Part shown: in pieces, positions 1 to 7,131 of the stretch | How positions within the stretch are numbered: position 1 is the first letter of the stretch | Layout of the letters: the number at the start of each line of letters is the position of its first letter | Source: a virus | UHGV virus genome: UHGV-0172325 | Direction: 5' to 3' (one strand) | Length of the DNA stretch: 12,537 nt | Made by a program: the position numbers and the translations under genes | The notes under the pieces: generated by a model | Databases searched by the model: none | What the model was told of the DNA's origin: nothing | Seen by the model: only the letters and a program-made list of their open reading frames with translations

Positions 1-183
1 TGAACAAAACCACGAGTTCCTGGTGTGCCTTATTCGGCCTGCTAGTTCGAATTTAATTTACGGTTTTTATGTGGTTTTAGGGATAAACACAAGGATGGTG
101 TCCCCTGCAGACATCTACTTGAGGCGGCAGGGGATTGATTGGAATGGTGTTTTTTAGATGTGAAAAATATTTTACCCGCTATT

Positions 184-384
184 TTACCCATTGGCGCGGC
201 TTAAGAGCTTATTTTTGAATTCACAATGGTCACGATATAACCATCTTGCTCGCCCGTGGATAACTTTGGCTTTAGGCAGGTCGCCGGACTTAATCCGGTC
301 ATAAATGAAGGTTTTACCGAAGCCAGTATCGGCCATGATGAATTTCAAATCAACCAGTGAATCAGGTTGTAGTTCGTGTTGCAT
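184..384 (-). CDS. AlpA-family DNA-binding protein / excisionase-like (66 aa)
   Basis: 66-aa ORF. The segment TGFGKTFIYDRIKSGDLPKAKVIHGRARWLYRDHCEF matches the AlpA/Xis pattern (TG..R.TIYDW ... W). It is the last gene of the leftward operon, where xis sits in lambdoid phages. GGAG lies about 9 nt upstream of the ATG. Confidence 0.6.
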   Translation of the reverse strand: MQHELQPDSLVDLKFIMADTGFGKTFIYDRIKSGDLPKAKVIHGRARWLYRDHCEFKNKLLSRANG

Positions 385-426
385 GAGTGCTATCTCCGAA
401 TAGGGAATCGAACCTGCAAATCAGGC

Positions 427-451
427 AATAAAAAACCGCCATCAGGCGGCT
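427..451 (-). terminator. Intrinsic terminator (hairpin CCGCC/GGCGG plus U-run on the minus-strand transcript)
   Basis: Plus strand reads AATAAAAAA-CCGCC-ATCA-GGCGG; on the leftward transcript this gives a GC stem followed by UUUUUUAUU. Lies between the 103-aa ORF and the xis-like gene. Confidence 0.5.
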
Positions 452-492
452 TGGTGTTCTTTCAGTTCTTCAATTCGAATATTGGTTACGTC

Positions 493-804
493 TTATTCGA
501 TGCGCACTCCTGGTATTTCGCCTTTTGATATTGCTAAGTCATAAATTTGCGCGGCACTATACCCATCTCGCATCCATGAATCTAAGGCGCGAATAGCCTC
601 GCTACGCTTTTTATCTTCTCTTTCATTTTTGATATCAACGAGGACATCAACGCAATTAAGGCATATGTGGATTTTGTCCTTACATTCGATCATGGCGGCT
701 TTACCATGATTTCCGCCACACAGTGAGCATAAATCTTCAGGGTCTGGCTGGTATTTCTGTAACGTTAAATGGTTGAATGTTGAACAGGCCATAATCATCT
801 CCAT
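493..804 (-). CDS. Hypothetical Cys-rich protein (103 aa), possible zinc-ribbon
   Basis: ORF with a CSLCGG ... CKDKIHICLNC cysteine cluster (CxxC ... CxxC). Same strand as the operon. Weak ribosome-binding site. Confidence 0.45.
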   Translation of the reverse strand: MEMIMACSTFNHLTLQKYQPDPEDLCSLCGGNHGKAAMIECKDKIHICLNCVDVLVDIKNEREDKKRSEAIRALDSWMRDGYSAAQIYDLAISKGEIPGVRIE

Positions 805-871
805 AAAACAAAACTCGCCGTAGCGAGTTCAGATAAAAGAAATCCATCAATTGGTTAGGGTTTTTGTAATT

Positions 872-1063
872 CTACGAATTATGTTGTTTTTTAGCTTCAG
901 CTTTCCATTCATCAAAGGCAGTGTCTTTGTTCATGGTGCTGATATTGATCTTACGGTCAATATCATATACACGCCACTCACCGTTAGGCCTCTCTTCGCA
1001 TCTAACTAAGTATGAATTGCCATTAATATCTATGCGTCTGTCTATTTGCATGAACATTTTCAA
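872..1063 (-). CDS. Hypothetical protein (63 aa)
   Basis: Protein-like ORF on the operon strand. Start codon uncertain: Met at codons 1, 3 and 5, none with a clear SD. Confidence 0.4.
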   Translation of the reverse strand: MKMFMQIDRRIDINGNSYLVRCEERPNGEWRVYDIDRKINISTMNKDTAFDEWKAEAKKQHNS

Positions 1064-1174
1064 TTTTCGAATCCTCTTTAATATGCATTTTTTGCTATTT
1101 CAGTAGTTTACAATTGATGAGGCGTTATTATACACACTTCATTAATGCAAGCATCTTTATGCTATGCCACTAAT

Positions 1175-1456
1175 TTAGCAATTGATATTCACCTTTATCG
1201 CGTACACTTTTACCGGTTTATCGCCGAAGTGGGGATGTGTGATTGTCTTGATTTCATATCCGTCATACGGGACGTCAATTCTACGGCTGGAATCGTCGCG
1301 CTTCGGATATCCCTTTGTGATAATCAGGCGGTCATACTCCCGGAACATAATTCGCTTATTCCAGTAGTCATTACACAAGCGATACTCTTCCGTTTTCTCT
1401 CCAGACTTCATCTGGTCGAAATATTCACCGTTAACTGCCAGTTGAAGGTTAGCCAC
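1175..1456 (-). CDS. ASCH-domain (PUA-like) protein, 93 aa
   Basis: The N-terminal motif SGEKTEEYR fits the ASCH signature G-x-K-T-x-E-x-R; size is typical for the family. Overlaps the upstream gene's stop by 8 nt, indicating translational coupling. Confidence 0.55.
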   Translation of the reverse strand: MANLQLAVNGEYFDQMKSGEKTEEYRLCNDYWNKRIMFREYDRLIITKGYPKRDDSSRRIDVPYDGYEIKTITHPHFGDKPVKVYAIKVNINC

Positions 1457-2399
1457 GGTTAACCTCCTGCGGCGGTTCTGGTAGCGGCATCCAGTACAAG
1501 GCGTTCCCTAACCACGATAAAGTGCCGTCGCTCAACTCCACGTATTCCCCTTGTACCTGTCCTGCCATATACTCGCCGTGCTTTGAATAAATTAAAATCC
1601 AATCATCTTGAGCGGGCATTCGCTCACTACAGCTTATCCAACCATCCGGAGTTACCGGAGAGTTGCCGGGTTCTTTAATGTGCAAGCGAGGCTCACCATC
1701 TTTTGGCTCAGGCCACTGGCGCTCCATGTTGATCTTCAATTTATCTTCCATAGCAGCGGTAATTTCAGCATCGCTGATGCCAGCACGGCGCTGTGCATCC
1801 CACAACAGAAACTGCATATCAGCCCACTCGCTAAGATCGTCTGGTTCGGCTGCGGCTTCCAGTGCCTCTTTTGAGAGATGTTTCAGCGGGCCAACTGTAC
1901 CAACACAGCCAAACGTCTTATCTGACCATTCAGCATGGCGCTGCCGGATTAAATTGCGCAATTGAAGCGATGATCCGTTCTCCTCTGACAACTCTTCATG
2001 ATTACTTGCAGGTTCGACACCCTGAAGCATGGCGGCGCGGCAGGCATTCCAGCCTCTCACCTCTGCAATAGCGGCAACAGCATCGACCGCGTACATTTTA
2101 AGAGGGTTGGGCATTGGTTTTTCTTCAGGTACTACTGGCACTGGAGGGGCGGCGTATACTTCAATTGTCCCATTATCAATAGGCCATTCCCCATCCTTGA
2201 TGTAGTCACTTGTGCCATCGACCTGCTGTTCTGCAATGTGGAAAGCACCTATTGGTTTTGCTTCCAGTGATGCCAGTGCAATTTTTAATGCGGTAAGCAT
2301 GTTGTTTTGATCTTCATCGAGTCCGAACGGTATTTCATCCCGTGCTGACTCAATGCTGGTAATCGTGTTCTGTAACCATTCTTTGGTAAGAGTATTCAT
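1449..2399 (-). CDS. Prophage early protein, 316 aa; acidic; possible MazG-like dATP/dGTP pyrophosphohydrolase (DUF550-type) plus DUF551-type C-terminus
   Basis: Long ORF whose start sits 3 nt after the upstream stop. The central acidic helical segment (EALEAAAEPDDLSEWADMQFLLWDAQRRAG) and the Trp/Gly-rich C-terminus resemble the DUF550/DUF551 architecture common in enterobacterial prophages. Recalled from memory, not searched. Confidence 0.45.
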   Translation of the reverse strand: MNTLTKEWLQNTITSIESARDEIPFGLDEDQNNMLTALKIALASLEAKPIGAFHIAEQQVDGTSDYIKDGEWPIDNGTIEVYAAPPVPVVPEEKPMPNPLKMYAVDAVAAIAEVRGWNACRAAMLQGVEPASNHEELSEENGSSLQLRNLIRQRHAEWSDKTFGCVGTVGPLKHLSKEALEAAAEPDDLSEWADMQFLLWDAQRRAGISDAEITAAMEDKLKINMERQWPEPKDGEPRLHIKEPGNSPVTPDGWISCSERMPAQDDWILIYSKHGEYMAGQVQGEYVELSDGTLSWLGNALYWMPLPEPPQEVNRG

Positions 2400-2401
2400 A
2401 A

Positions 2402-2593
2402 CTATTTCACTTTAATCTCAATATTTCGCAGCTTTATGTCTACTGGTAGGTCTGACTTTCCTGTTAACGCTAATGCGAGATTTTCAGGAGTAATGAGAGC
2501 AGTTATTGTTTTCCCTATTGCCAGACGAATAATCATTCGTATCTCGCGATCGTCACATGCTCCCGGTCGAACAATTGATATTTGTCCGATCAT
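2402..2593 (-). CDS. Small hypothetical protein (63 aa)
   Basis: Start chosen at the internal Met MIGQISIV..., which has a strong SD (AAGGAGA, 5-nt spacer). The ATG sits 1 nt after the upstream stop (TGA-G-ATG). The 99-aa version in the ORF track lacks an SD. Confidence 0.45.
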   Translation of the reverse strand: MIGQISIVRPGACDDREIRMIIRLAIGKTITALITPENLALALTGKSDLPVDIKLRNIEIKVK

Positions 2594-2594
2594 C

Positions 2595-2786
2595 TCACTC
2601 TCCTTTAGTGCGCAAATGGTTTTTCCAGCGGTTTTGCGCCGCGCTGCCCTTATCTCGGACTCCCTCTCTGGCAATTCCAGAAAATGAAAACAACACCACA
2701 CGACGATTGCTAACTCTCAACCACTGGCTGGGATAGCAAAGTCTGTATACACGGGAAATAAGCATCTTAGCTTTACGGTTTTTCAT
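2595..2786 (-). CDS. Small basic hypothetical protein (63 aa), N-terminus MKNRKAK
   Basis: ORF in ATGA overlap with the upstream ORF stop. Shares an identical first 7 residues with the next ORF. Confidence 0.35.
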   Translation of the reverse strand: MKNRKAKMLISRVYRLCYPSQWLRVSNRRVVLFSFSGIAREGVRDKGSAAQNRWKNHLRTKGE

Positions 2787-2959
2787 CTTACTGCGTACCC
2801 TTTCTTCCGCCTGTTCTGTGACGCGGTGGGTTTATAGTTAAATGCGAATACCACCCTACCAAACATGCCGATCACCGCCCGTTTGTGATTGCTGATTGGT
2901 AGCTTCTCGTACCCCGTCGAACGCGATAAAAGAAGTAATTTTGCTTTACGGTTTTTCAT
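2783..2959 (-). CDS. Small basic hypothetical protein (58 aa), N-terminus MKNRKAK
   Basis: Internal Met of the 72-aa track ORF, with AGGAGA 8 nt upstream. Overlaps the Ea22-like gene's stop by 14 nt. Confidence 0.35.
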   Translation of the reverse strand: MKNRKAKLLLLSRSTGYEKLPISNHKRAVIGMFGRVVFAFNYKPTASQNRRKKGYAVR

Positions 2960-3863
2960 CGTTTTGTTCTCCTGCGTCTCCTTTGATGCGAATGCCAGCA
3001 AGCCAGTTTCTTATGCCGATATATTCAGCGTTCCTGAAACCGCTTTTTACATATATAAATGGCAAGCGAAGATTGTGACCATTGGCTGCCAGGTAGTCTT
3101 TACAACCCTGTTCGGTGAAACAGCAGGTAACGAATTCATCAATATCTTTCACAGCAACGCGCCGCCATTTTTCTGGTGGCTCTCGAAAGTTTTCGTGAAG
3201 TAGTTCGAGACGACGACTTTGGCGTTTATTGGCTTCATTGCCATCTTCATCAACCCAGACAATCCGGTCATAGTCATAATCAGCATCAACAACGATTTCG
3301 CGCTTTTGATACACACAAAACATGGGATCTGACGTTATTCGATTGTCCTGTGTTCGAATATTTTCACCGATGATGCCAAACGAATCTGGTGCAGATTTTG
3401 TCTGCATCTCTTCGATACGTTCAGCCATCGCAGCACACTCTTCAAAGTTGCTTAATGCTTTTCGCTCCCATTCGGCGCATTGTTTTTCCAGTTCTGCTAT
3501 GCGCTTACTTCCATCCGCGATTACTCCCTCGTAATATTCACGCTGTTCGTTGAGTTTTGATTTTGCTGCTTCAAGCTCAACGCGCAGCTTCCCTACCGTT
3601 AGCGCAATATCCTCGTTCTCCTGGTCGCGGAGTTTGATGTATTGCTGGTTCCTTTCCCGTTCATCCAGTAGTGCCAAAGCAACCTTTGGATTAAAGGCAG
3701 CAATAAATTCAGCGTTGTTTTTCAGAACGTGTTGCGCAATGGCCTGACTACTTAGTCGGACCTCATAACCACGTGCGCCACGGTGTGGTTTATATGAGTC
3801 CCAGTCTCCCCACGTTGCTTTCTCTGCCGCCTCACGCAGTGCCTGATAGTCAATCTTGCTCAC
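2946..3863 (-). CDS. Ea22-like coiled-coil prophage protein (about 305 aa from a GTG start)
   Basis: Long ORF with a central coiled-coil ([36 protein letters not shown]...). Start set at the in-frame GTG at 3863, preceded by AAGGAGG with a 6-nt spacer and in GTGA overlap with the upstream stop. The track start at 3884 is also GTG but has no SD. Confidence 0.55.
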
Positions 3864-4027
3864 TGGTTGCCTCCTTTGCGCCACATCGCATTCAGATATT
3901 TGTTTTGATTCACTGACGGAAAAGAATTTCTCTTAAGTAATTCCTCTCTCGATGGCATTGGCTTTACGCGTTGGCGAATAATCATTTCTGCCGGAAGAAT
4001 GCCGGGATTGTATGCAAGTCCTCTCAT
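3860..4027 (-). CDS. Small hypothetical protein (55 aa)
   Basis: Internal Met (MRGLAYNPG...) preceded by GAGGAA with a 6-nt spacer. Its stop overlaps the Ea22-like GTG start. A longer version overlaps the upstream gene in another frame. Confidence 0.4.
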
Positions 4028-4037
4028 GGTAAATTCC

Positions 4038-4331
4038 TCAGTCATTACTGATAGCGCCATAGCGTGAGCGGTAATTACGCAGGCGCGGGTCAATTTCATG
4101 GAAGTGGGTATATGTGGCTTTGCGGAATGGTCGGATTGATGTCTGGTAAATTCGCTCGCGTTCTTCTTTCTCTGCAAGCCATATACAATTGCGAAATTCC
4201 TTTTCCTCTTTCGTTTCCTGTGGTAGCGACATTATCCGGTCGTAGTTTTTCCTGAATTTATCCAGCACCTCCGATACGGAATTGCCGGAACAGCGGCGCG
4301 CGTCGTCCGCACCATACAGAGGCGCTGGCAT
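4038..4331 (-). CDS. Hypothetical protein (97 aa)
   Basis: ORF with a strong SD (AGGAG, 7-nt spacer), starting 13 nt after the ssb stop. Confidence 0.5.
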
Positions 4332-4344
4332 GATTTTCTCCTGA

Positions 4345-4860
4345 TTAAATTGCGTGAATAGCGTGACGAGGGAAGGGGAGAGTTACTGGTGCAAAGGGTA
4401 TATCGTCGTCAAAATCCATAGGTGGTTCGCTGTGATTCCCATGCTGCTTAGATTGCTGTCTTTGTTGCTGACCGTTATTTCGCTGAGGTGAAGACTGTTC
4501 ATTGCCTCCTTGCTTTCCACCAAGCATTTGCATGGTTCCACCAACGCCTACGATAACTTCGGTAGTGAACCGATCCTGTCCGCTTTGATCCTGCCATTTT
4601 CTTGTCCGCAATTTGCCTTCAAGATAAACCTCTGAGCCTTTTCGCAGATATTCGCTGGCAATTTCTGCCAGTTTCCCGCTCATTACCACACGGTGCCACT
4701 CCGTCTGCTCCTTTTGCTCTCCAGTTTGCTTATCACGCCATTGTTCTGACGTAGCAACTGTAAGGTTTGCAAATGCCGTTCCTGATGGTGAATATCTGAT
4801 TTCTGGATCATGACCAAGGCGACCAATAATGATCACCTTATTTACGCCTCTGCTTGCCAT
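4345..4860 (-). CDS. ssb: Single-stranded DNA-binding protein (SSB) with a 15-aa extension beyond the canonical DDDIPF tip
   Basis: N-terminal OB-fold region closely matches E. coli SSB (MASRGVNKV..., [45 protein letters not shown]), followed by a Gly/Gln-rich linker and [11 protein letters not shown]. The ORF then continues [15 protein letters not shown] before the stop. Confidence 0.9.
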
Positions 4861-5568
4861 TTATGCCGCCTGTTTTAGCTCGTTAACTCTGATGTTCATT
4901 ACCTGAACGCATTTAGCCTGCGCCTCCTCGTTTCCAGCCATTAATTGCCAGTCACGCTGATAACGCTCGATGAGTTTTTTCTTGTCAGTTTCTGTTGACG
5001 CATAATCGCTGAAGTCTTTCAGGATTTGTTCGCAGTCAACCGATGGAGATTTCTGGTTGGTATTTTCTGGTGGTGATTTGTTATCTGATACTGGCATTGC
5101 CCAGCCCGGCAGCGATGGGGGGGACCAGTAAAATCCTGTTCCATCCTTCAGTTTTGCCCTGTGCCACCCCTGCTTTTTATCGAGAGATGTTTGTGCGAAA
5201 CCTTCCTCAAGGTTATACAGATACCGACCGATTCCCCACTGAACGGCAGCGCGCTTCATTGCACCGGAACGACCGCCTTTGACGGCTTCTACCTGCGTGT
5301 TTTCAGCAGCATCCCATTTGGTTACCCATTCGGAATCAATCTTTATTGATATGCCGCATTCAACGCCGCCGTTGTTGGGAATATCGCGGTATTCATTGCG
5401 CCATCCTGCTTTGCCGCAAACATCGTCCAGGCGTTTCATGATTGCCCGGTTCGTGACATAAGCCAGCACCATAGCCCACACTTTTCCATCGCGTGTTTTA
5501 CCGCTTTGCTGTATTCGCCATTCGATATCTTCAGGGCTGAATGGCTCATCGAATTTGTTCAAATCCAT
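4861..5568 (-). CDS. Rad52/22-family ssDNA-annealing protein (phage recombinase, Sak-like)
   Basis: 235-aa ORF directly upstream of ssb (its stop TAA abuts the ssb ATG). The N-terminal region with KRAAVQWGIGRYLY resembles Rad52-type annealing proteins. Sits where bet/erf occurs in lambdoid phages. Confidence 0.55.
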   Translation of the reverse strand: MDLNKFDEPFSPEDIEWRIQQSGKTRDGKVWAMVLAYVTNRAIMKRLDDVCGKAGWRNEYRDIPNNGGVECGISIKIDSEWVTKWDAAENTQVEAVKGGRSGAMKRAAVQWGIGRYLYNLEEGFAQTSLDKKQGWHRAKLKDGTGFYWSPPSLPGWAMPVSDNKSPPENTNQKSPSVDCEQILKDFSDYASTETDKKKLIERYQRDWQLMAGNEEAQAKCVQVMNIRVNELKQAA

Positions 5569-5737
5569 AATTCACCTCAGAATGGACATGGCCCAAGGAA
5601 ATAACGCTGATTTAATACTTCAGTCTTTGCCGCATTCAAAAATACGCGAACACCTTCACGATCTCCCTTCTGGCGATACATTAACGCCTGCTGCGTGTAC
5701 ATGCGCCTCTGTAACTTGCTCTCCTTCACTGTGGTTG
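5567..5737 (-). CDS. Small hypothetical protein (56 aa) in the kil/gam position
   Basis: Not in the ORF track (under 60 aa). ATG at 5737 is preceded by GAAGGAGATATTC. Translation: MSLATTVKESKLQRRMYTQQALMYRQKGDREGVRVFLNAAKTEVLNQRYFLGPCPF. Overlaps an alternative ORF (5656..5826) in another frame. Confidence 0.35.
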
Positions 5738-5959
5738 CAAGTGACATGAATATCTCCTTCGTTACCGATTAATTCTTTCATCTGACGAATGAATTCTTCG
5801 TCTGACCAGTTATCTGTAAAACTCATTTCCTGCGATACCACGGAAGGTTGATAGCTGATTTCATCGCTTTATTTGCTTCAAGCCACATTTTTGAATCACC
5901 AATAAATCTGGCTATTACTGCTTTGTTTTGTGCCGCACGAAGCATCTGGTGATTAATGG

Positions 5960-6094
5960 CTATTTCATTGCGCATAACGCCTCCAGTTGTTTCTTTGCTG
6001 CTCTGATTAATTGTTTAACTCGGCGTGATAATTCAGATTCGTGCGGGTAGAAAGCGGACATGACGCCGCTACCCGCGAGCTGAAAGTGCATCAT
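5960..6094 (-). CDS. cIII-like small protein (44 aa), putative FtsH-inhibitor analogue
   Basis: Internal Met pair with AGGAG 6 nt upstream. The segment HESELSRRVKQLIRAAKKQL aligns with the lambda CIII core SESLLERITRKLRDGWKRL as recalled from memory. Position between N and the recombination genes matches lambda cIII. Confidence 0.45.
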   Translation of the reverse strand: MMHFQLAGSGVMSAFYPHESELSRRVKQLIRAAKKQLEALCAMK

Positions 6095-6157
6095 GGGTAA
6101 CTCCTTATATTTGATTGCATAACGAAAACGCCTCGAGTGAAGCGTTATTGGTATGCA

Positions 6158-6184
6158 TATAAAAAAGCCCTCACACTGGAGGGC
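6158..6184 (-). terminator. Intrinsic terminator, tL1-like (GCCCUC stem, 6-nt loop, U-run on the leftward transcript)
   Basis: Plus strand reads AAAAAA-GCCCTC-ACACTG-GAGGGC; on the minus-strand RNA the hairpin is followed by UUUUUUAUAU. Lies upstream of the cIII-like gene. Confidence 0.6.
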
Positions 6185-6320
6185 AAAGAAGATTTCCAAT
6201 AATCAGAACAAGTCGGCTCCTGTTTAGTTAAGAGCGACATTGCTCCGTGTATTCACTCGTTGGAATGAATACACAGTGCAGTGTTTATTCTGTTATTTAT
6301 GCCAAAAATAAAGGCCACCA

Positions 6321-6572
6321 TCAGGCAGCCTTGTTGTAAATGTTGCAGGTATCAAGTAAGTAATTAGATGGAGCGCCATAAATTATGAATTCATCGTTTG
6401 TCGGGTCCATCTCCATCTCTTGGCCTATTGCCATTCTTGCGTCAGTGTCATCAGCGGCGAAGCATAAAACAGCCCACGCACCCATTGTTTTAAAAAGAAC
6501 TGCAATTGGCTGTGGTTTTACTGAATTTGCGTTAGCGCGAAAATCACAAATCGCACTTTCATGAAATTCCAT
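6321..6572 (-). CDS. Hypothetical protein (83 aa)
   Basis: ORF with a good SD (GAGGTG, 4-nt spacer). Located between N-like and cIII-like, the lambda ea10/ral slot. An imperfect hairpin plus T-run overlaps its 3' end (about 6303-6335). Confidence 0.5.
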   Translation of the reverse strand: MEFHESAICDFRANANSVKPQPIAVLFKTMGAWAVLCFAADDTDARMAIGQEMEMDPTNDEFIIYGAPSNYLLDTCNIYNKAA

Positions 6573-6630
6573 ATATCACCTCAAATAAGTGGTTTGCTGC
6601 CTAATTTCATTTTCTGGCGACCAACACAAG

Positions 6631-6903
6631 TCATCTTGCTGTCAGTTGTTTGGATTTACGGTAGCCTGCCGCGTAAAGAGCTACATTTGGAAGACAAGTT
6701 GAGCCTTCATATTTTCTGGTCAACGTTGTCAGTGTTATTACTTCTGCTCTCATTGCTGGTTTGCGTTTGCATTGTAAGACCACTCGTGATGGGGTTGGCC
6801 TGTGTAGTTTGTCGGAGCTAATCGCCTCCTGACTTTGCAGGTTTGCGCGACGAGCTCTACGGCGAGAAGCTGCGGTGCCTTTAAATTCTGTTTTTCTGGA
6901 CAT
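6631..6903 (-). CDS. N-like transcription antiterminator (90 aa)
   Basis: Start at the internal Met (6903) with GGAGG 5 nt upstream. The N-terminal arginine-rich motif GTAASRRRARRANL resembles the lambda/P22 N motif. The C-terminus LPNVALYAAGYRKSKQLTAR resembles P22 gp24 as recalled. Lies just downstream of pL and nutL. Confidence 0.6.
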   Translation of the reverse strand: MSRKTEFKGTAASRRRARRANLQSQEAISSDKLHRPTPSRVVLQCKRKPAMRAEVITLTTLTRKYEGSTCLPNVALYAAGYRKSKQLTAR

Positions 6904-7001
6904 AGATTCCTCCCGAATAAACTTTGGCGATGCAATCTCGAAGCTCCTCCTGAGACGGTTGCTTCGGCATTGCATCCCACAGCTTATGTGGTTGGGTGAT
7001 C

Positions 7002-7047
7002 TGGCTTTTCAGCCACGTAGTCGAGAGTCGACGTTGTTTAAAGAGCC
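7002..7047 (-). promoter_or_regulatory. nutL candidate: boxA (GGCTCTTTAAACAACG) and boxB hairpin (UGGCU-GAAA-AGCCA)
   Basis: On the minus strand, a boxA-like GCTCTTTA is followed about 22 nt later by a 5-bp stem with a GAAA loop. The whole ~50-nt segment is closely similar to the nutR candidate, with compensatory stem changes. Confidence 0.55.
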
Positions 7048-7102
7048 TGCCAGTCTGTTCCATTTGGCTTCCAGCGTCCTGCTGATGGTTAAATAGTACG
7101 AT

Positions 7103-7131
7103 ATGTACTTCACTTGGTCAATACAATTTGT
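7103..7131 (-). promoter_or_regulatory. pL candidate: -35 TTGACC, 17-bp spacer, -10 TACTAT (minus strand)
   Basis: Near-consensus sigma-70 hexamers with a 17-bp spacer, oriented toward nutL and N. The spacer contains the 11-mer GAAGTACATAT also found in the cI-cro operator region. Confidence 0.55.

What the first reader, a model, noticed from the sequence alone, without database searches (positions are those of the whole stretch)
4861..5568. Recombination module is a Rad52-family annealing protein plus SSB, with no recognisable exonuclease or Gam
The operon places a Rad52/Sak-like annealing protein directly upstream of ssb (stop and start abut). No ORF in the window resembles lambda Exo, RecE-type exonucleases or Gam. 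The neighbouring small ORFs (4038..4331, 3860..4027, 5567..5737) have no recognisable nuclease features. This is an Erf/Sak-plus-SSB style module rather than lambda Red.
Basis: partly seen in the sequence, partly recalled or inferred. Interest (0 to 1): 0.35.

Follow-up and report, generated by a model that had tools for sequence, protein, structure and literature searches.

The report
Known phage recombination module, Abc2 overlooked

Summary
The ORF at 4861..5568 (- strand) is a Rad52/Rad22-family annealing protein (Pfam E 4.9e-26; the AF2 model matches Mgm101 and human RAD52). Its stop codon abuts the ATG of a bacterial-type ssb gene (4345..4860). No lambda Exo, RecE/YqaJ, Bet or Gam homologue is found in any frame of the window.

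Abc2 is the functional counterpart of Gam. In the published model it turns host RecBCD into the end-resecting nuclease for the phage recombinase. The cluster is therefore a P22-style hijack module, not a bare SSAP+SSB pair.

This gene combination is the "HK75" Rec-module type of Zheng et al. 2025, seen in 27 of 325 lambdoid phages. The three genes lie together in 382 of 5,426 complete E. coli genomes, and RefSeq already names all three.

The annealing protein is a chimera: a Rad52-type N-domain joined to the C-terminal three-helix domain of P22 Erf (63% identity). This "Erf domain swap" was also described before.

One minor extra finding: the SSB carries 15 residues after its canonical DIPF tip, and this junction is a recurrent HNH-endonuclease insertion site.

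Verdict: already known, low interest.

The parts
4861..5568 (-). Strand-annealing protein (SAP), 235 aa: Rad52-type N-domain, linker, then an Erf-type C-terminal domain
   Evidence: Pfam PF04098 E 4.9e-26. PHROG 1097 E 8e-129. AF2 model pLDDT 82.5. The top 14 Foldseek PDB hits are Mgm101 or human RAD52, probability 0.98-1.0.
5161..5559 (-). Rad52/Rad22 annealing domain (residues 4-136), including the invariant motif KGGxSxAMKRAAVQWGIGRYLY
   Evidence: Pfam match range. Invariant columns in a 32-sequence alignment. The same domain is 55-61% identical in Gemmatimonadota, Deltaproteobacteria and Bacillus.
5092..5169 (-). Conserved WW-like beta element (residues 134-159, GW..FYW..LPxWAxP)
   Evidence: Invariant W148, P151, L153, P154, W156, A157 and P159. 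Weak phmmer hit to the PRP40 WW domain, E 0.32. Strands 136-139 and 145-149 in the model.
5044..5085 (-). Variable, disordered linker (residues 162-175)
   Evidence: pLDDT below 50. Variable in length and sequence in the alignment.
4864..5034 (-). C-terminal three-helix domain shared with P22 Erf (residues 179-235)
   Evidence: BLASTP 63% identity to P22 Erf residues 133-205, E 2e-30. DNA homology to P22 erf covers only 5031..4861. AF2 of this domain alone gives pLDDT 90.7 with three helices. No PDB fold match below E 1.
4345..4860 (-). Phage SSB, bacterial type, 171 aa; its start abuts the SAP stop
   Evidence: Pfam PF00436 E 2e-38. PHROG 44. Sequence.
4348..4392 (-). 15-residue extension [15 protein letters not shown] after the canonical acidic tip [11 protein letters not shown] of the SSB
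   Evidence: Alignment A2. The last 48 nt are 100% identical in mEp235 and epsilon34, whose first 330 nt of ssb are only about 71% identical. The same tail ends an HNH-like ORF inserted after the DIPF codon in E. coli loci L131 and L132.
4038..4331 (-). abc2, the P22-type anti-RecBCD protein, 97 aa
   Evidence: Pfam PF11043 E 4.2e-62 and PHROG 656. 92% identity to P22 Abc2 with Pro68 conserved. tblastn E 2e-59.
3860..4027 (-). DUF2737 small protein (P22 orf56 homologue), which always follows abc2
   Evidence: Pfam PF10930 E 9e-32. Follows Abc2 in essentially all related contigs and in P22.
5577..5747 (-). Small ORF (56 aa), Sf6 gene 29 / epsilon34 gp37 homologue, immediately upstream of the SAP; function unknown; occupies the position of arf in P22
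   Evidence: PHROG 1723 E 4.5e-34. Annotated in mEp235, HK544 and mEp234 upstream of both Rad52-type and ERF-type SAPs. No similarity to P22 Arf.
5656..5826 (-). Small ORF (HK022p38-like, 56 aa from the ATG at 5826), overlapping kil's stop and 92 nt of the next ORF
   Evidence: PHROG 2123 E 1.5e-39. Annotated in mEp235 and HK544. Only a 7-residue SDEEFI match to P22 Arf.
5823..5975 (-). kil (context; upstream boundary of the module)
   Evidence: Pfam PF06301 E 1.7e-20.
5960..6094 (-). cIII (context)
   Evidence: Pfam PF08134 E 7.8e-30.

Best explanation
This is an intact Rec module in the early-left (PL) operon of a lambdoid phage or prophage of E. coli. It is the SAP + SSB + Abc2, nuclease-free type, called the 'HK75 type'. 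All steps below are inferred by homology; none was tested for this locus.

Proposed mechanism:
1. N-antiterminated PL transcription expresses the genes in the order cIII, kil, two small ORFs, SAP, ssb, abc2, DUF2737.
2. Abc2 binds the RecC subunit of host RecBCD, makes the enzyme blind to Chi, and keeps its helicase and 5'-strand nuclease active. The host enzyme therefore supplies the end resection that lambda obtains from its own Exo.
3. The phage SSB coats the resulting ssDNA.
4. The Rad52-type ring protein anneals complementary strands. This serves end-joining or circularisation, recombination-dependent replication, and mosaic exchange.
5. The Erf-type C-terminal three-helix domain is a portable partner-docking domain. 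It most likely recognises the conserved enterobacterial SSB acidic tail, or alternatively the Abc2-RecBCD complex, and so loads the SAP onto SSB-coated ssDNA.
For: Gene order and tight packing are shown directly: stop and start abut for SAP/ssb, a 13-nt gap separates ssb from abc2, and there is no terminator-like site on the - strand between 5568 and 4038.

The same order kil>orf>orf>Rad52N>CTD>SSB>(DEDD exo)>Abc2>DUF2737 occurs in every one of 120 IMG/VR contigs wherever the contig reaches far enough. It also occurs in cultured phages ECP1, HK75, mEp235, Sf6, N7 and epsilon34.

Zheng et al. 2025 (PMC12315714) list this functional type: anti-RecBCD +, SSB +, nuclease -, SAP +, prototype HK75, 27 phages.

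Abc2 mechanism: Wilkinson et al. 2022 (PMC9836394) report a cryo-EM structure with Abc2 bound to RecC. [quoted passage not shown] Hutinet et al. 2018 summarise Murphy 2000 in the same sense.

SSB stimulation of a neighbouring SAP through the SSB C-tail is shown for HK620 Sak4-SSB and for Red-beta/RecT with SSB tails.

The window has no Chi site on either strand, as reported for most phages that carry an anti-RecBCD gene.

The C-terminal domain occurs on two unrelated annealing folds, PF04098 here and PF04404 in P22, HK544, GZ7, S9-5 and IME1369_01. It is confined to Enterobacterales.
Against: Nothing was tested experimentally for this SAP family. Its annealing activity, ring formation and stimulation by SSB are inferred from homology.

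In HK620, abc2 did not stimulate oligonucleotide recombineering. The Abc2 contribution should therefore show only with dsDNA ends.

Loading of the recombinase by Abc2-RecBCD 'remains to be tested experimentally' even in P22.

The partner of the C-terminal domain is unknown. Its predicted fold did not match the Red-beta C-terminal domain or anything else in the PDB. It occurs both without a phage SSB (P22) and without Abc2 (mEp234).

The SSB acidic tip here is not at the C-terminus, which may change how partners bind it.
Confidence: 0.8

Rival explanations
1. One reading: a self-sufficient SSAP+SSB pair with no end-processing or anti-RecBCD partner. It would act only on ssDNA that arises at replication forks, as in oligonucleotide recombineering.
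For: No phage-encoded 5'-3' exonuclease or Gam is present. In HK620, SAP+SSB alone gave the full oligonucleotide recombineering activity of the module.
Against: Abc2 (92% identical to P22 Abc2) lies 13 nt downstream in the same operon. It is linked to the SAP-SSB pair in essentially every related contig.
Confidence: 0.08
2. The nuclease-free arrangement is a degraded derivative of the ES18/epsilon34-type module. It would have lost a DEDD 3'-5' exonuclease gene between ssb and abc2 and would be partly defective in this prophage.
For: mEp235, mEpX2, epsilon34 and g341c carry a 182-aa Rv2179c-like DEDD exonuclease (PF16473, E 1e-73). It sits exactly between the ssb stop and the abc2 ribosome-binding site, while the flanks are collinear with the window.
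Against: The nuclease-free form is at least as common as the form with the nuclease: about 55 against 34 complete modules among the IMG/VR contigs. It occurs in plaque-forming phages ECP1, HK75 and N7. Zheng et al. treat it as a separate functional type of 27 phages. All ORFs here are intact.
Confidence: 0.07
3. The SAP and SSB serve mainly phage DNA replication (fork restart, or the switch to rolling-circle replication) rather than genetic recombination as such.
For: Rec modules are implicated in the theta-to-sigma replication switch. A paper title states that Sak and Sak4 are required for phage replication in S. aureus (listed, PMC5499656; the paper was not read).
Against: This does not exclude the best explanation, because the biochemical activity would be the same. 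No evidence specific to this locus exists.
Confidence: 0.05

Closest known systems
HK75-type lambdoid Rec module (Zheng, Casjens, Davidson, Amundsen & Smith 2025, Genome Res; PMC12315714)
   Same: It has the same four-way functional signature: anti-RecBCD Abc2 present, SSB-1 present, no nuclease, SAP present. It sits at the same place in the early-left operon. HK75 DNA is 91.8% identical over 93% of window 3800-6300, and ECP1 is 95.5% identical.
   Different: There is no functional difference. This locus is simply another allele, in a different immunity and replication background (the cI, O and DnaB-type genes of the window).
Phage P22 recombination system (arf-erf-abc1-abc2)
   Same: Abc2 is 92% identical and DUF2737 follows it. 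The last 73 residues of the SAP are 63% identical to the P22 Erf C-terminus. The flanking kil/cIII genes and the operon position are the same.
   Different: The annealing domain is Rad52/Sak-type (PF04098), not ERF (PF04404). abc1 is replaced by ssb. arf is replaced by unrelated small ORFs.
ES18 / epsilon34 / mEp235-type module (SAP-SSB-nuclease-Abc2)
   Same: The SAP, SSB (including the 15-residue tail), Abc2 and DUF2737 are orthologous.
   Different: Those phages carry an extra DEDD 3'-5' exonuclease between ssb and abc2, or an HNH gene. The window has only 13 nt at that position.
Phage HK620 Sak4-SSB-Abc2 module (Hutinet et al. 2018)
   Same: The architecture is the same: small ORF, SAP, SSB, Abc2. 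This is the only system of this architecture tested experimentally. In it, SSB stimulates the SAP through its last six residues, and abc2 is dispensable for oligonucleotide recombineering.
   Different: Sak4 is a RecA/Rad51-like ATPase and its SSB is a distant non-canonical one. Here the SAP is an ATP-independent Rad52-type protein and the SSB is bacterial-type.
Lambda Red (Gam-Bet-Exo)
   Same: It occupies the same operon position after kil and presumably has the same overall task.
   Different: There are no homologues of Exo, Bet or Gam. RecBCD is hijacked rather than blocked.

Membership tests
Rad52/Rad22 (Sak-type) single-strand annealing proteins | Sequence match to the family profile above the curated threshold | tested here: met
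   PF04098: 91.9 bits against a cut-off of 20.3, E 4.9e-26, profile positions 7-153 of 153.
Rad52/Rad22 (Sak-type) single-strand annealing proteins | Rad52 N-terminal fold | tested here: met
   AF2 model with pLDDT 82.5. The top 14 Foldseek PDB hits are all Mgm101 or human RAD52, E 4e-4 to 8e-3, probability 0.98-1.0. TM-scores are modest (0.3-0.5), and sequence-only searches of the PDB found nothing.
Rad52/Rad22 (Sak-type) single-strand annealing proteins | Oligomeric ring; ATP-independent ssDNA annealing | not testable with these tools
   This needs biochemistry or EM.
ERF family (P22 Erf type) | ERF N-terminal annealing domain (PF04404) | tested here: not met
   No PF04404 hit at E <= 0.01, whereas P22, HK544, GZ7, S9-5 and IME1369_01 proteins hit it at 1e-18 to 1e-46. 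BLASTP against P22 Erf aligns only the C-terminus.
ERF family (P22 Erf type) | Erf C-terminal domain | tested here: met
   63% identity over 73 residues, E 2e-30.
Lambda Red / RecET two-component recombinase | Cognate 5'-3' exonuclease (YqaJ/Exo or RecE) next to the SAP | tested here: not met
   No Pfam or PHROG hit in 30 ORFs. tblastn with lambda Exo gives E >= 0.85.
Lambda Red / RecET two-component recombinase | Gam-type RecBCD inhibitor | tested here: not met
   tblastn with lambda Gam gives E >= 0.2. No Gam or Mu-Gam Pfam hit. GamL was tested only indirectly, through the profile libraries.
Abc2-based RecBCD-hijack Rec module (P22 / HK620 / HK75 types) | abc2 homologue in the same operon as the SAP | tested here: met
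   PF11043 E 4.2e-62. 92% identical to P22 Abc2, including Pro68. Lies 13 nt downstream of ssb.
Abc2-based RecBCD-hijack Rec module (P22 / HK620 / HK75 types) | Abc2 binds RecC and alters the Chi response; recombination depends on recBCD | not testable with these tools
   Known for P22 Abc2. Inferred here from 92% identity.
HK75 functional type (anti-RecBCD+, SSB+, nuclease-, SAP+) | All four presence/absence states | tested here: met
   compared with Table 1 of PMC12315714.
Bacterial-type SSB | OB-fold SSB domain | tested here: met
   PF00436 E 2e-38, residues 6-105.
Bacterial-type SSB | Acidic ...DDDIPF motif at the extreme C-terminus | tested here: not met
   The motif is present (residues 149-156) but is followed by 15 more residues.

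The most novel reading that the evidence does not exclude
The 15-residue extension after the DIPF tip may make this phage SSB a 'private' partner. It would mask the free C-terminal Phe that host SSB-interacting proteins need, while still being read by the phage SAP through its Erf-type C-terminal domain or its WW-like proline-binding element. This would insulate phage ssDNA from host nucleases and mediators. The same junction is a recurrent homing site for HNH endonuclease genes. Their insertion converts the SSB back to a canonical tail, so natural 'masked' and 'unmasked' alleles coexist.
Probability: 0.12. Interest if true: 0.45.

Novelty: already known. Interest (0 to 1): 0.15.

Why it matters
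It matters little beyond correct annotation. The locus is one more copy of a catalogued lambdoid Rec module, found in about 7% of complete E. coli genomes and already named correctly by RefSeq.

It does illustrate two general points. First, absence of an exonuclease or Gam next to a phage annealing protein should prompt a search for Abc2-type RecBCD hijackers. Second, phage annealing proteins are built from exchangeable annealing and partner-docking domains.

The Rad52-type SAP + SSB + Abc2 trio has not been characterised biochemically, as far as the literature searched here shows. It could be a compact recombineering cassette for enterobacteria.

Tried and rejected
1. Homology of the C-terminal domain to the Red-beta C-terminal domain or lambda Orf. 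The AF2 model of residues 172-235 was confident (pLDDT 90.7), but Foldseek against the PDB gave no hit below E 1.2 and Red-beta was not listed. A profile search of PDB sequences gave only weak colicin coiled-coil hits at E 0.01. This was rejected as unsupported.

2. The small ORFs upstream of the SAP as Arf homologues. There was no alignment for 5577..5747 and only a 7-residue SDEEFI match for 5656..5841. This was not accepted.

3. The SSB extension as an obligate partner feature of the Rad52-type SAP. This was rejected, because many enterobacterial Rad52-type SAPs are followed by SSBs ending in canonical DIPF.

4. The extension as the remnant of a deleted HNH gene. This is unlikely. HNH homologues elsewhere lack the tail, and two HNH variants only about 47% identical to each other both read into it. 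The tail therefore belongs to the ssb locus.

5. A word-indexed search with the 73-residue C-terminal domain returned only fragments. The exhaustive representative search returned only 17 hits. tblastn against phage genomes was more informative.

6. Sequence-only searches of the PDB with the protein or its family profile did not find RAD52. The Pfam profile and the fold search did.

Full report
**What is in the window**

The window is the immunity and early region of a lambdoid phage or prophage of E. coli.
- On the - strand, in the order of transcription: N (6631..6975), cIII (5960..6094), kil (5823..5975), two small overlapping ORFs (5656..5826 and 5577..5747), the 235-aa ORF of the finding (4861..5568), ssb (4345..4860), a 97-aa ORF (4038..4331), DUF2737 (3860..4027), an Ead/Ea22 protein, and further 'ea' genes down to an excisionase-like ORF.
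- To the right: a LexA-type cI repressor (8666..9367, - strand), then cro, cII, an O-type replication protein and a DnaB-type helicase on the + strand.
- Parts of the window match about 88% of complete E. coli genomes, as expected for mosaic prophage DNA.

**Checking the observation**

The 235-aa ORF matches Pfam Rad52_Rad22 at E 4.9e-26 over residues 4-136. The next ORF matches the SSB family at E 2e-38. The TAA of the first ORF is followed directly by the ATG of the second.

An AlphaFold2 model built on 32 homologues (mean pLDDT 82.5) finds only Rad52-family structures at the top of a PDB fold search. These are yeast Mgm101 and human RAD52, 14 of the top 14, with probability 0.98-1.0.

No lambda Exo/YqaJ, RecE, RecT/Bet, Gam or Mu-Gam family is hit by any of 30 ORFs in Pfam or PHROGs. 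Six-frame tblastn with lambda Exo, Bet and Gam gives nothing better than E 0.2. So the literal observation holds.

One coordinate is wrong. 5567..5737 is not an ORF. The real ORF is 5577..5747.

ORF 4038..4331, listed as a featureless neighbour, is Abc2, the 'anti-RecBCD protein 2' of Salmonella phage P22.
- Pfam PF11043 at E 4.2e-62 and PHROG 656.
- 92% identity over all 97 residues, including Pro68, the residue that engages host PpiB.
- Its start lies 13 bases after the ssb stop.

Abc2 binds RecC at the Chi-recognition domains and leaves unwinding (helicase) activity essentially unchanged and nuclease activity largely intact. It is proposed to hijack RecBCD, so that the host enzyme produces the ssDNA for the phage recombinase. 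Wilkinson et al. 2022 note explicitly that phages with Abc2-like proteins lack an exonuclease of their own (citing Murphy 2000).

The absence of Exo and Gam is therefore the expected signature of the P22 strategy, not a gap in the module.

**It is a catalogued module type**

Zheng, Casjens et al. 2025 classified the Rec modules of 325 lambdoid phages into 13 functional types. The combination anti-RecBCD +, SSB +, nuclease -, SAP + is their 'HK75' type, with 27 phages. The same combination plus a nuclease is the 'ES18' type, with 25 phages.
- HK75 itself matches window 3800-6300 at 91.8% identity, ECP1 at 95.5%, and N7 and Sf6 at 96-97%.
- The SAP-ssb-abc2 block is contiguous in 382 of 5,426 complete E. 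coli genomes. RefSeq annotates it as 'Rad52/Rad22 family DNA repair protein | ssb | phage anti-RecBCD protein'.
- I found 120 IMG/VR contigs through the ssb tail. Every one that extends far enough has the order kil > orf > orf > Rad52-N > C-domain > SSB > (DEDD exonuclease) > Abc2 > DUF2737. A minority have an HNH gene between the SAP and ssb.

**Mosaic anatomy**

DNA comparisons show cassette boundaries at gene or domain borders.
- Against mEp235 and epsilon34, the window is collinear except for a ~560-bp gene inserted exactly between the ssb stop and the abc2 ribosome-binding site. That gene encodes a 182-aa DEDD 3'-5' exonuclease (PF16473, E 1e-73).
- Against HK544, homology stops at the SAP start and resumes at the abc2 start. 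In between, HK544 has an ERF-type SAP and a divergent SSB-like gene.
- Against P22, homology covers only abc2-DUF2737 and the last 171 nt of the SAP gene.

**The SAP is a chimera**

Residues 163-235 are 63% identical to the C-terminus of P22 Erf. The N-terminal annealing domains are unrelated: PF04098 here and PF04404 in P22. This explains why many records call the protein 'Erf'.

The C-terminal domain is a confidently predicted three-helix bundle (pLDDT 90.7). It has no significant match to any solved structure, and Red-beta's C-terminal domain was not retrieved.

In phage genomes the domain is attached to Rad52-type or ERF-type annealing domains. In genomes, the full-length form is confined to Enterobacterales. 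The Rad52-type N-domain alone is 55-61% identical in Gemmatimonadota, Deltaproteobacteria, Bacillus and others. There it lacks both this C-domain and, as far as my tblastn could see, an adjacent SSB.

This 'Erf domain swap' is not new. Villafane et al. 2008 describe it for epsilon34 gene 36, citing earlier Sf6 and ES18 papers and Poteete's two-domain model of Erf. It is noted again for phage L. Zheng et al. mention 'shuffling of partner interaction domains' as likely but left it unanalysed.

**How it most likely works**

All steps below are inferred by homology. None was tested for this protein family, as far as the literature searched here shows.
1. PL transcription expresses the genes as one unit. 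There is no terminator-like site on the - strand inside 5568..4038.
2. Abc2 retargets RecBCD.
3. The phage SSB coats the ssDNA.
4. The Rad52-type ring anneals complementary strands.

SSB stimulation of the adjacent SAP through the SSB C-tail is established for the architecturally parallel HK620 Sak4-SSB-Abc2 module. There, abc2 had no effect on oligonucleotide recombineering. It is also established for Red-beta/RecT with SSB tails.

The C-terminal domain occurs without a phage SSB (P22) and without Abc2 (mEp234). Its most economical partner is therefore a host constant, such as the enterobacterial SSB tail. This is inference only.

The window contains no Chi site. This fits the reported scarcity of Chi in phages that encode an anti-RecBCD protein.

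**A side observation followed part of the way**

The SSB here does not end at the canonical tip. [11 protein letters not shown] is followed by [15 protein letters not shown].

The last 48 nt of ssb are 100% identical in mEp235 and epsilon34, although the first 330 nt are only about 71% identical. ECP1 differs by two synonymous changes, and a Lelliottia prophage has APITLPFPRHSIHAI.

In two E. coli loci the ssb ends at ...DSDIPF-stop. A 159-aa Cys/His-rich HNH-like ORF is inserted right there, and it reads in frame into the very same tail ...[18 protein letters not shown]. Homologues of that ORF elsewhere end differently. Two variants only about 47% identical to each other both carry the tail.

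So the tail belongs to the ssb locus, and the junction after DIPF is a recurrent endonuclease-gene insertion site. Many other enterobacterial SSBs next to Rad52-type SAPs have plain DIPF ends, so the extension is not obligatory. Whether it alters partner binding is unknown.

**Verdict**

The module, its nuclease-free variant and the chimeric nature of its annealing protein are all already described. Interest is low.

Noticed in passing
window 4348-4392 (- strand); L131 4576-5055; L132 about 2760-3245: The phage SSB has 15 residues ([15 protein letters not shown]) after the canonical DFDDDIPF tip. In other E. coli prophages an HNH-like 159-aa ORF is inserted exactly after the DIPF codon and reads in frame into the same tail. 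The junction is therefore a recurrent homing-endonuclease insertion site, and SSB alleles with and without the extension coexist.
   Followed up: partly
window 5092-5169 (- strand), SAP residues 134-159: A conserved element GW..(x)..FYW.PP.LP.WA.P with two Trp 21 residues apart and a trailing Pro. It resembles a WW domain (weak phmmer hit to PRP40 WW, E 0.32) and is predicted as a small beta sheet. It could bind proline-rich peptides such as SSB linkers or tails.
   Followed up: no
L153-L210 (genome-contig loci): The Rad52-type N-domain (residues 1-160) is 55-61% identical in very distant phyla (Gemmatimonadota/Longimicrobium, Deltaproteobacteria, Bacillus/Shouchella, Sulfurimonas). This is unusually high conservation for a phage protein and suggests wide horizontal spread. 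These copies lack the Erf-type C-domain.
   Followed up: partly
window 5577-5747 and 5656-5841 (- strand): Two small ORFs overlap by 92 nt in different frames. Both are annotated as genes in mEp235 and HK544, and both have strong PHROG families labelled 'recombinase' without evident basis. The upstream one shares only an SDEEFI heptapeptide with P22 Arf. It is unclear whether both are expressed.
   Followed up: partly
L001 2021-2569 (mEp235); L003 1975-2523 (epsilon34): Close relatives carry a DEDD 3'-5' exonuclease (Rv2179c-like, PF16473) inserted precisely between ssb and abc2. A 3'-5' polarity is unexpected for a recombination exonuclease, and its role is unknown.
   Followed up: partly
window 1-12537: There is no Chi site (GCTGGTGG) on either strand of the 12.5-kb window.
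   Followed up: yes
window 2595-2786 and 2783-3001 (- strand): Two adjacent small ORFs both match PHROG 1380, so they look like a tandem duplication of a gene of unknown function.
   Followed up: no
window 1449-2399 (- strand): A 316-aa protein combines a dATP/dGTP pyrophosphohydrolase domain (PF04447) with a C-terminal DUF551. It may be a nucleotide-pool or anti-defence function in the 'ea' region.
   Followed up: no
L132 (record titled Actinomycetes MAG) and L135 (record titled Chryseobacterium sp.): Records titled as non-enteric genomes carry this enterobacterial phage module at 98% and 78% protein identity. This probably reflects contamination or mis-binning of those assemblies.
   Followed up: no
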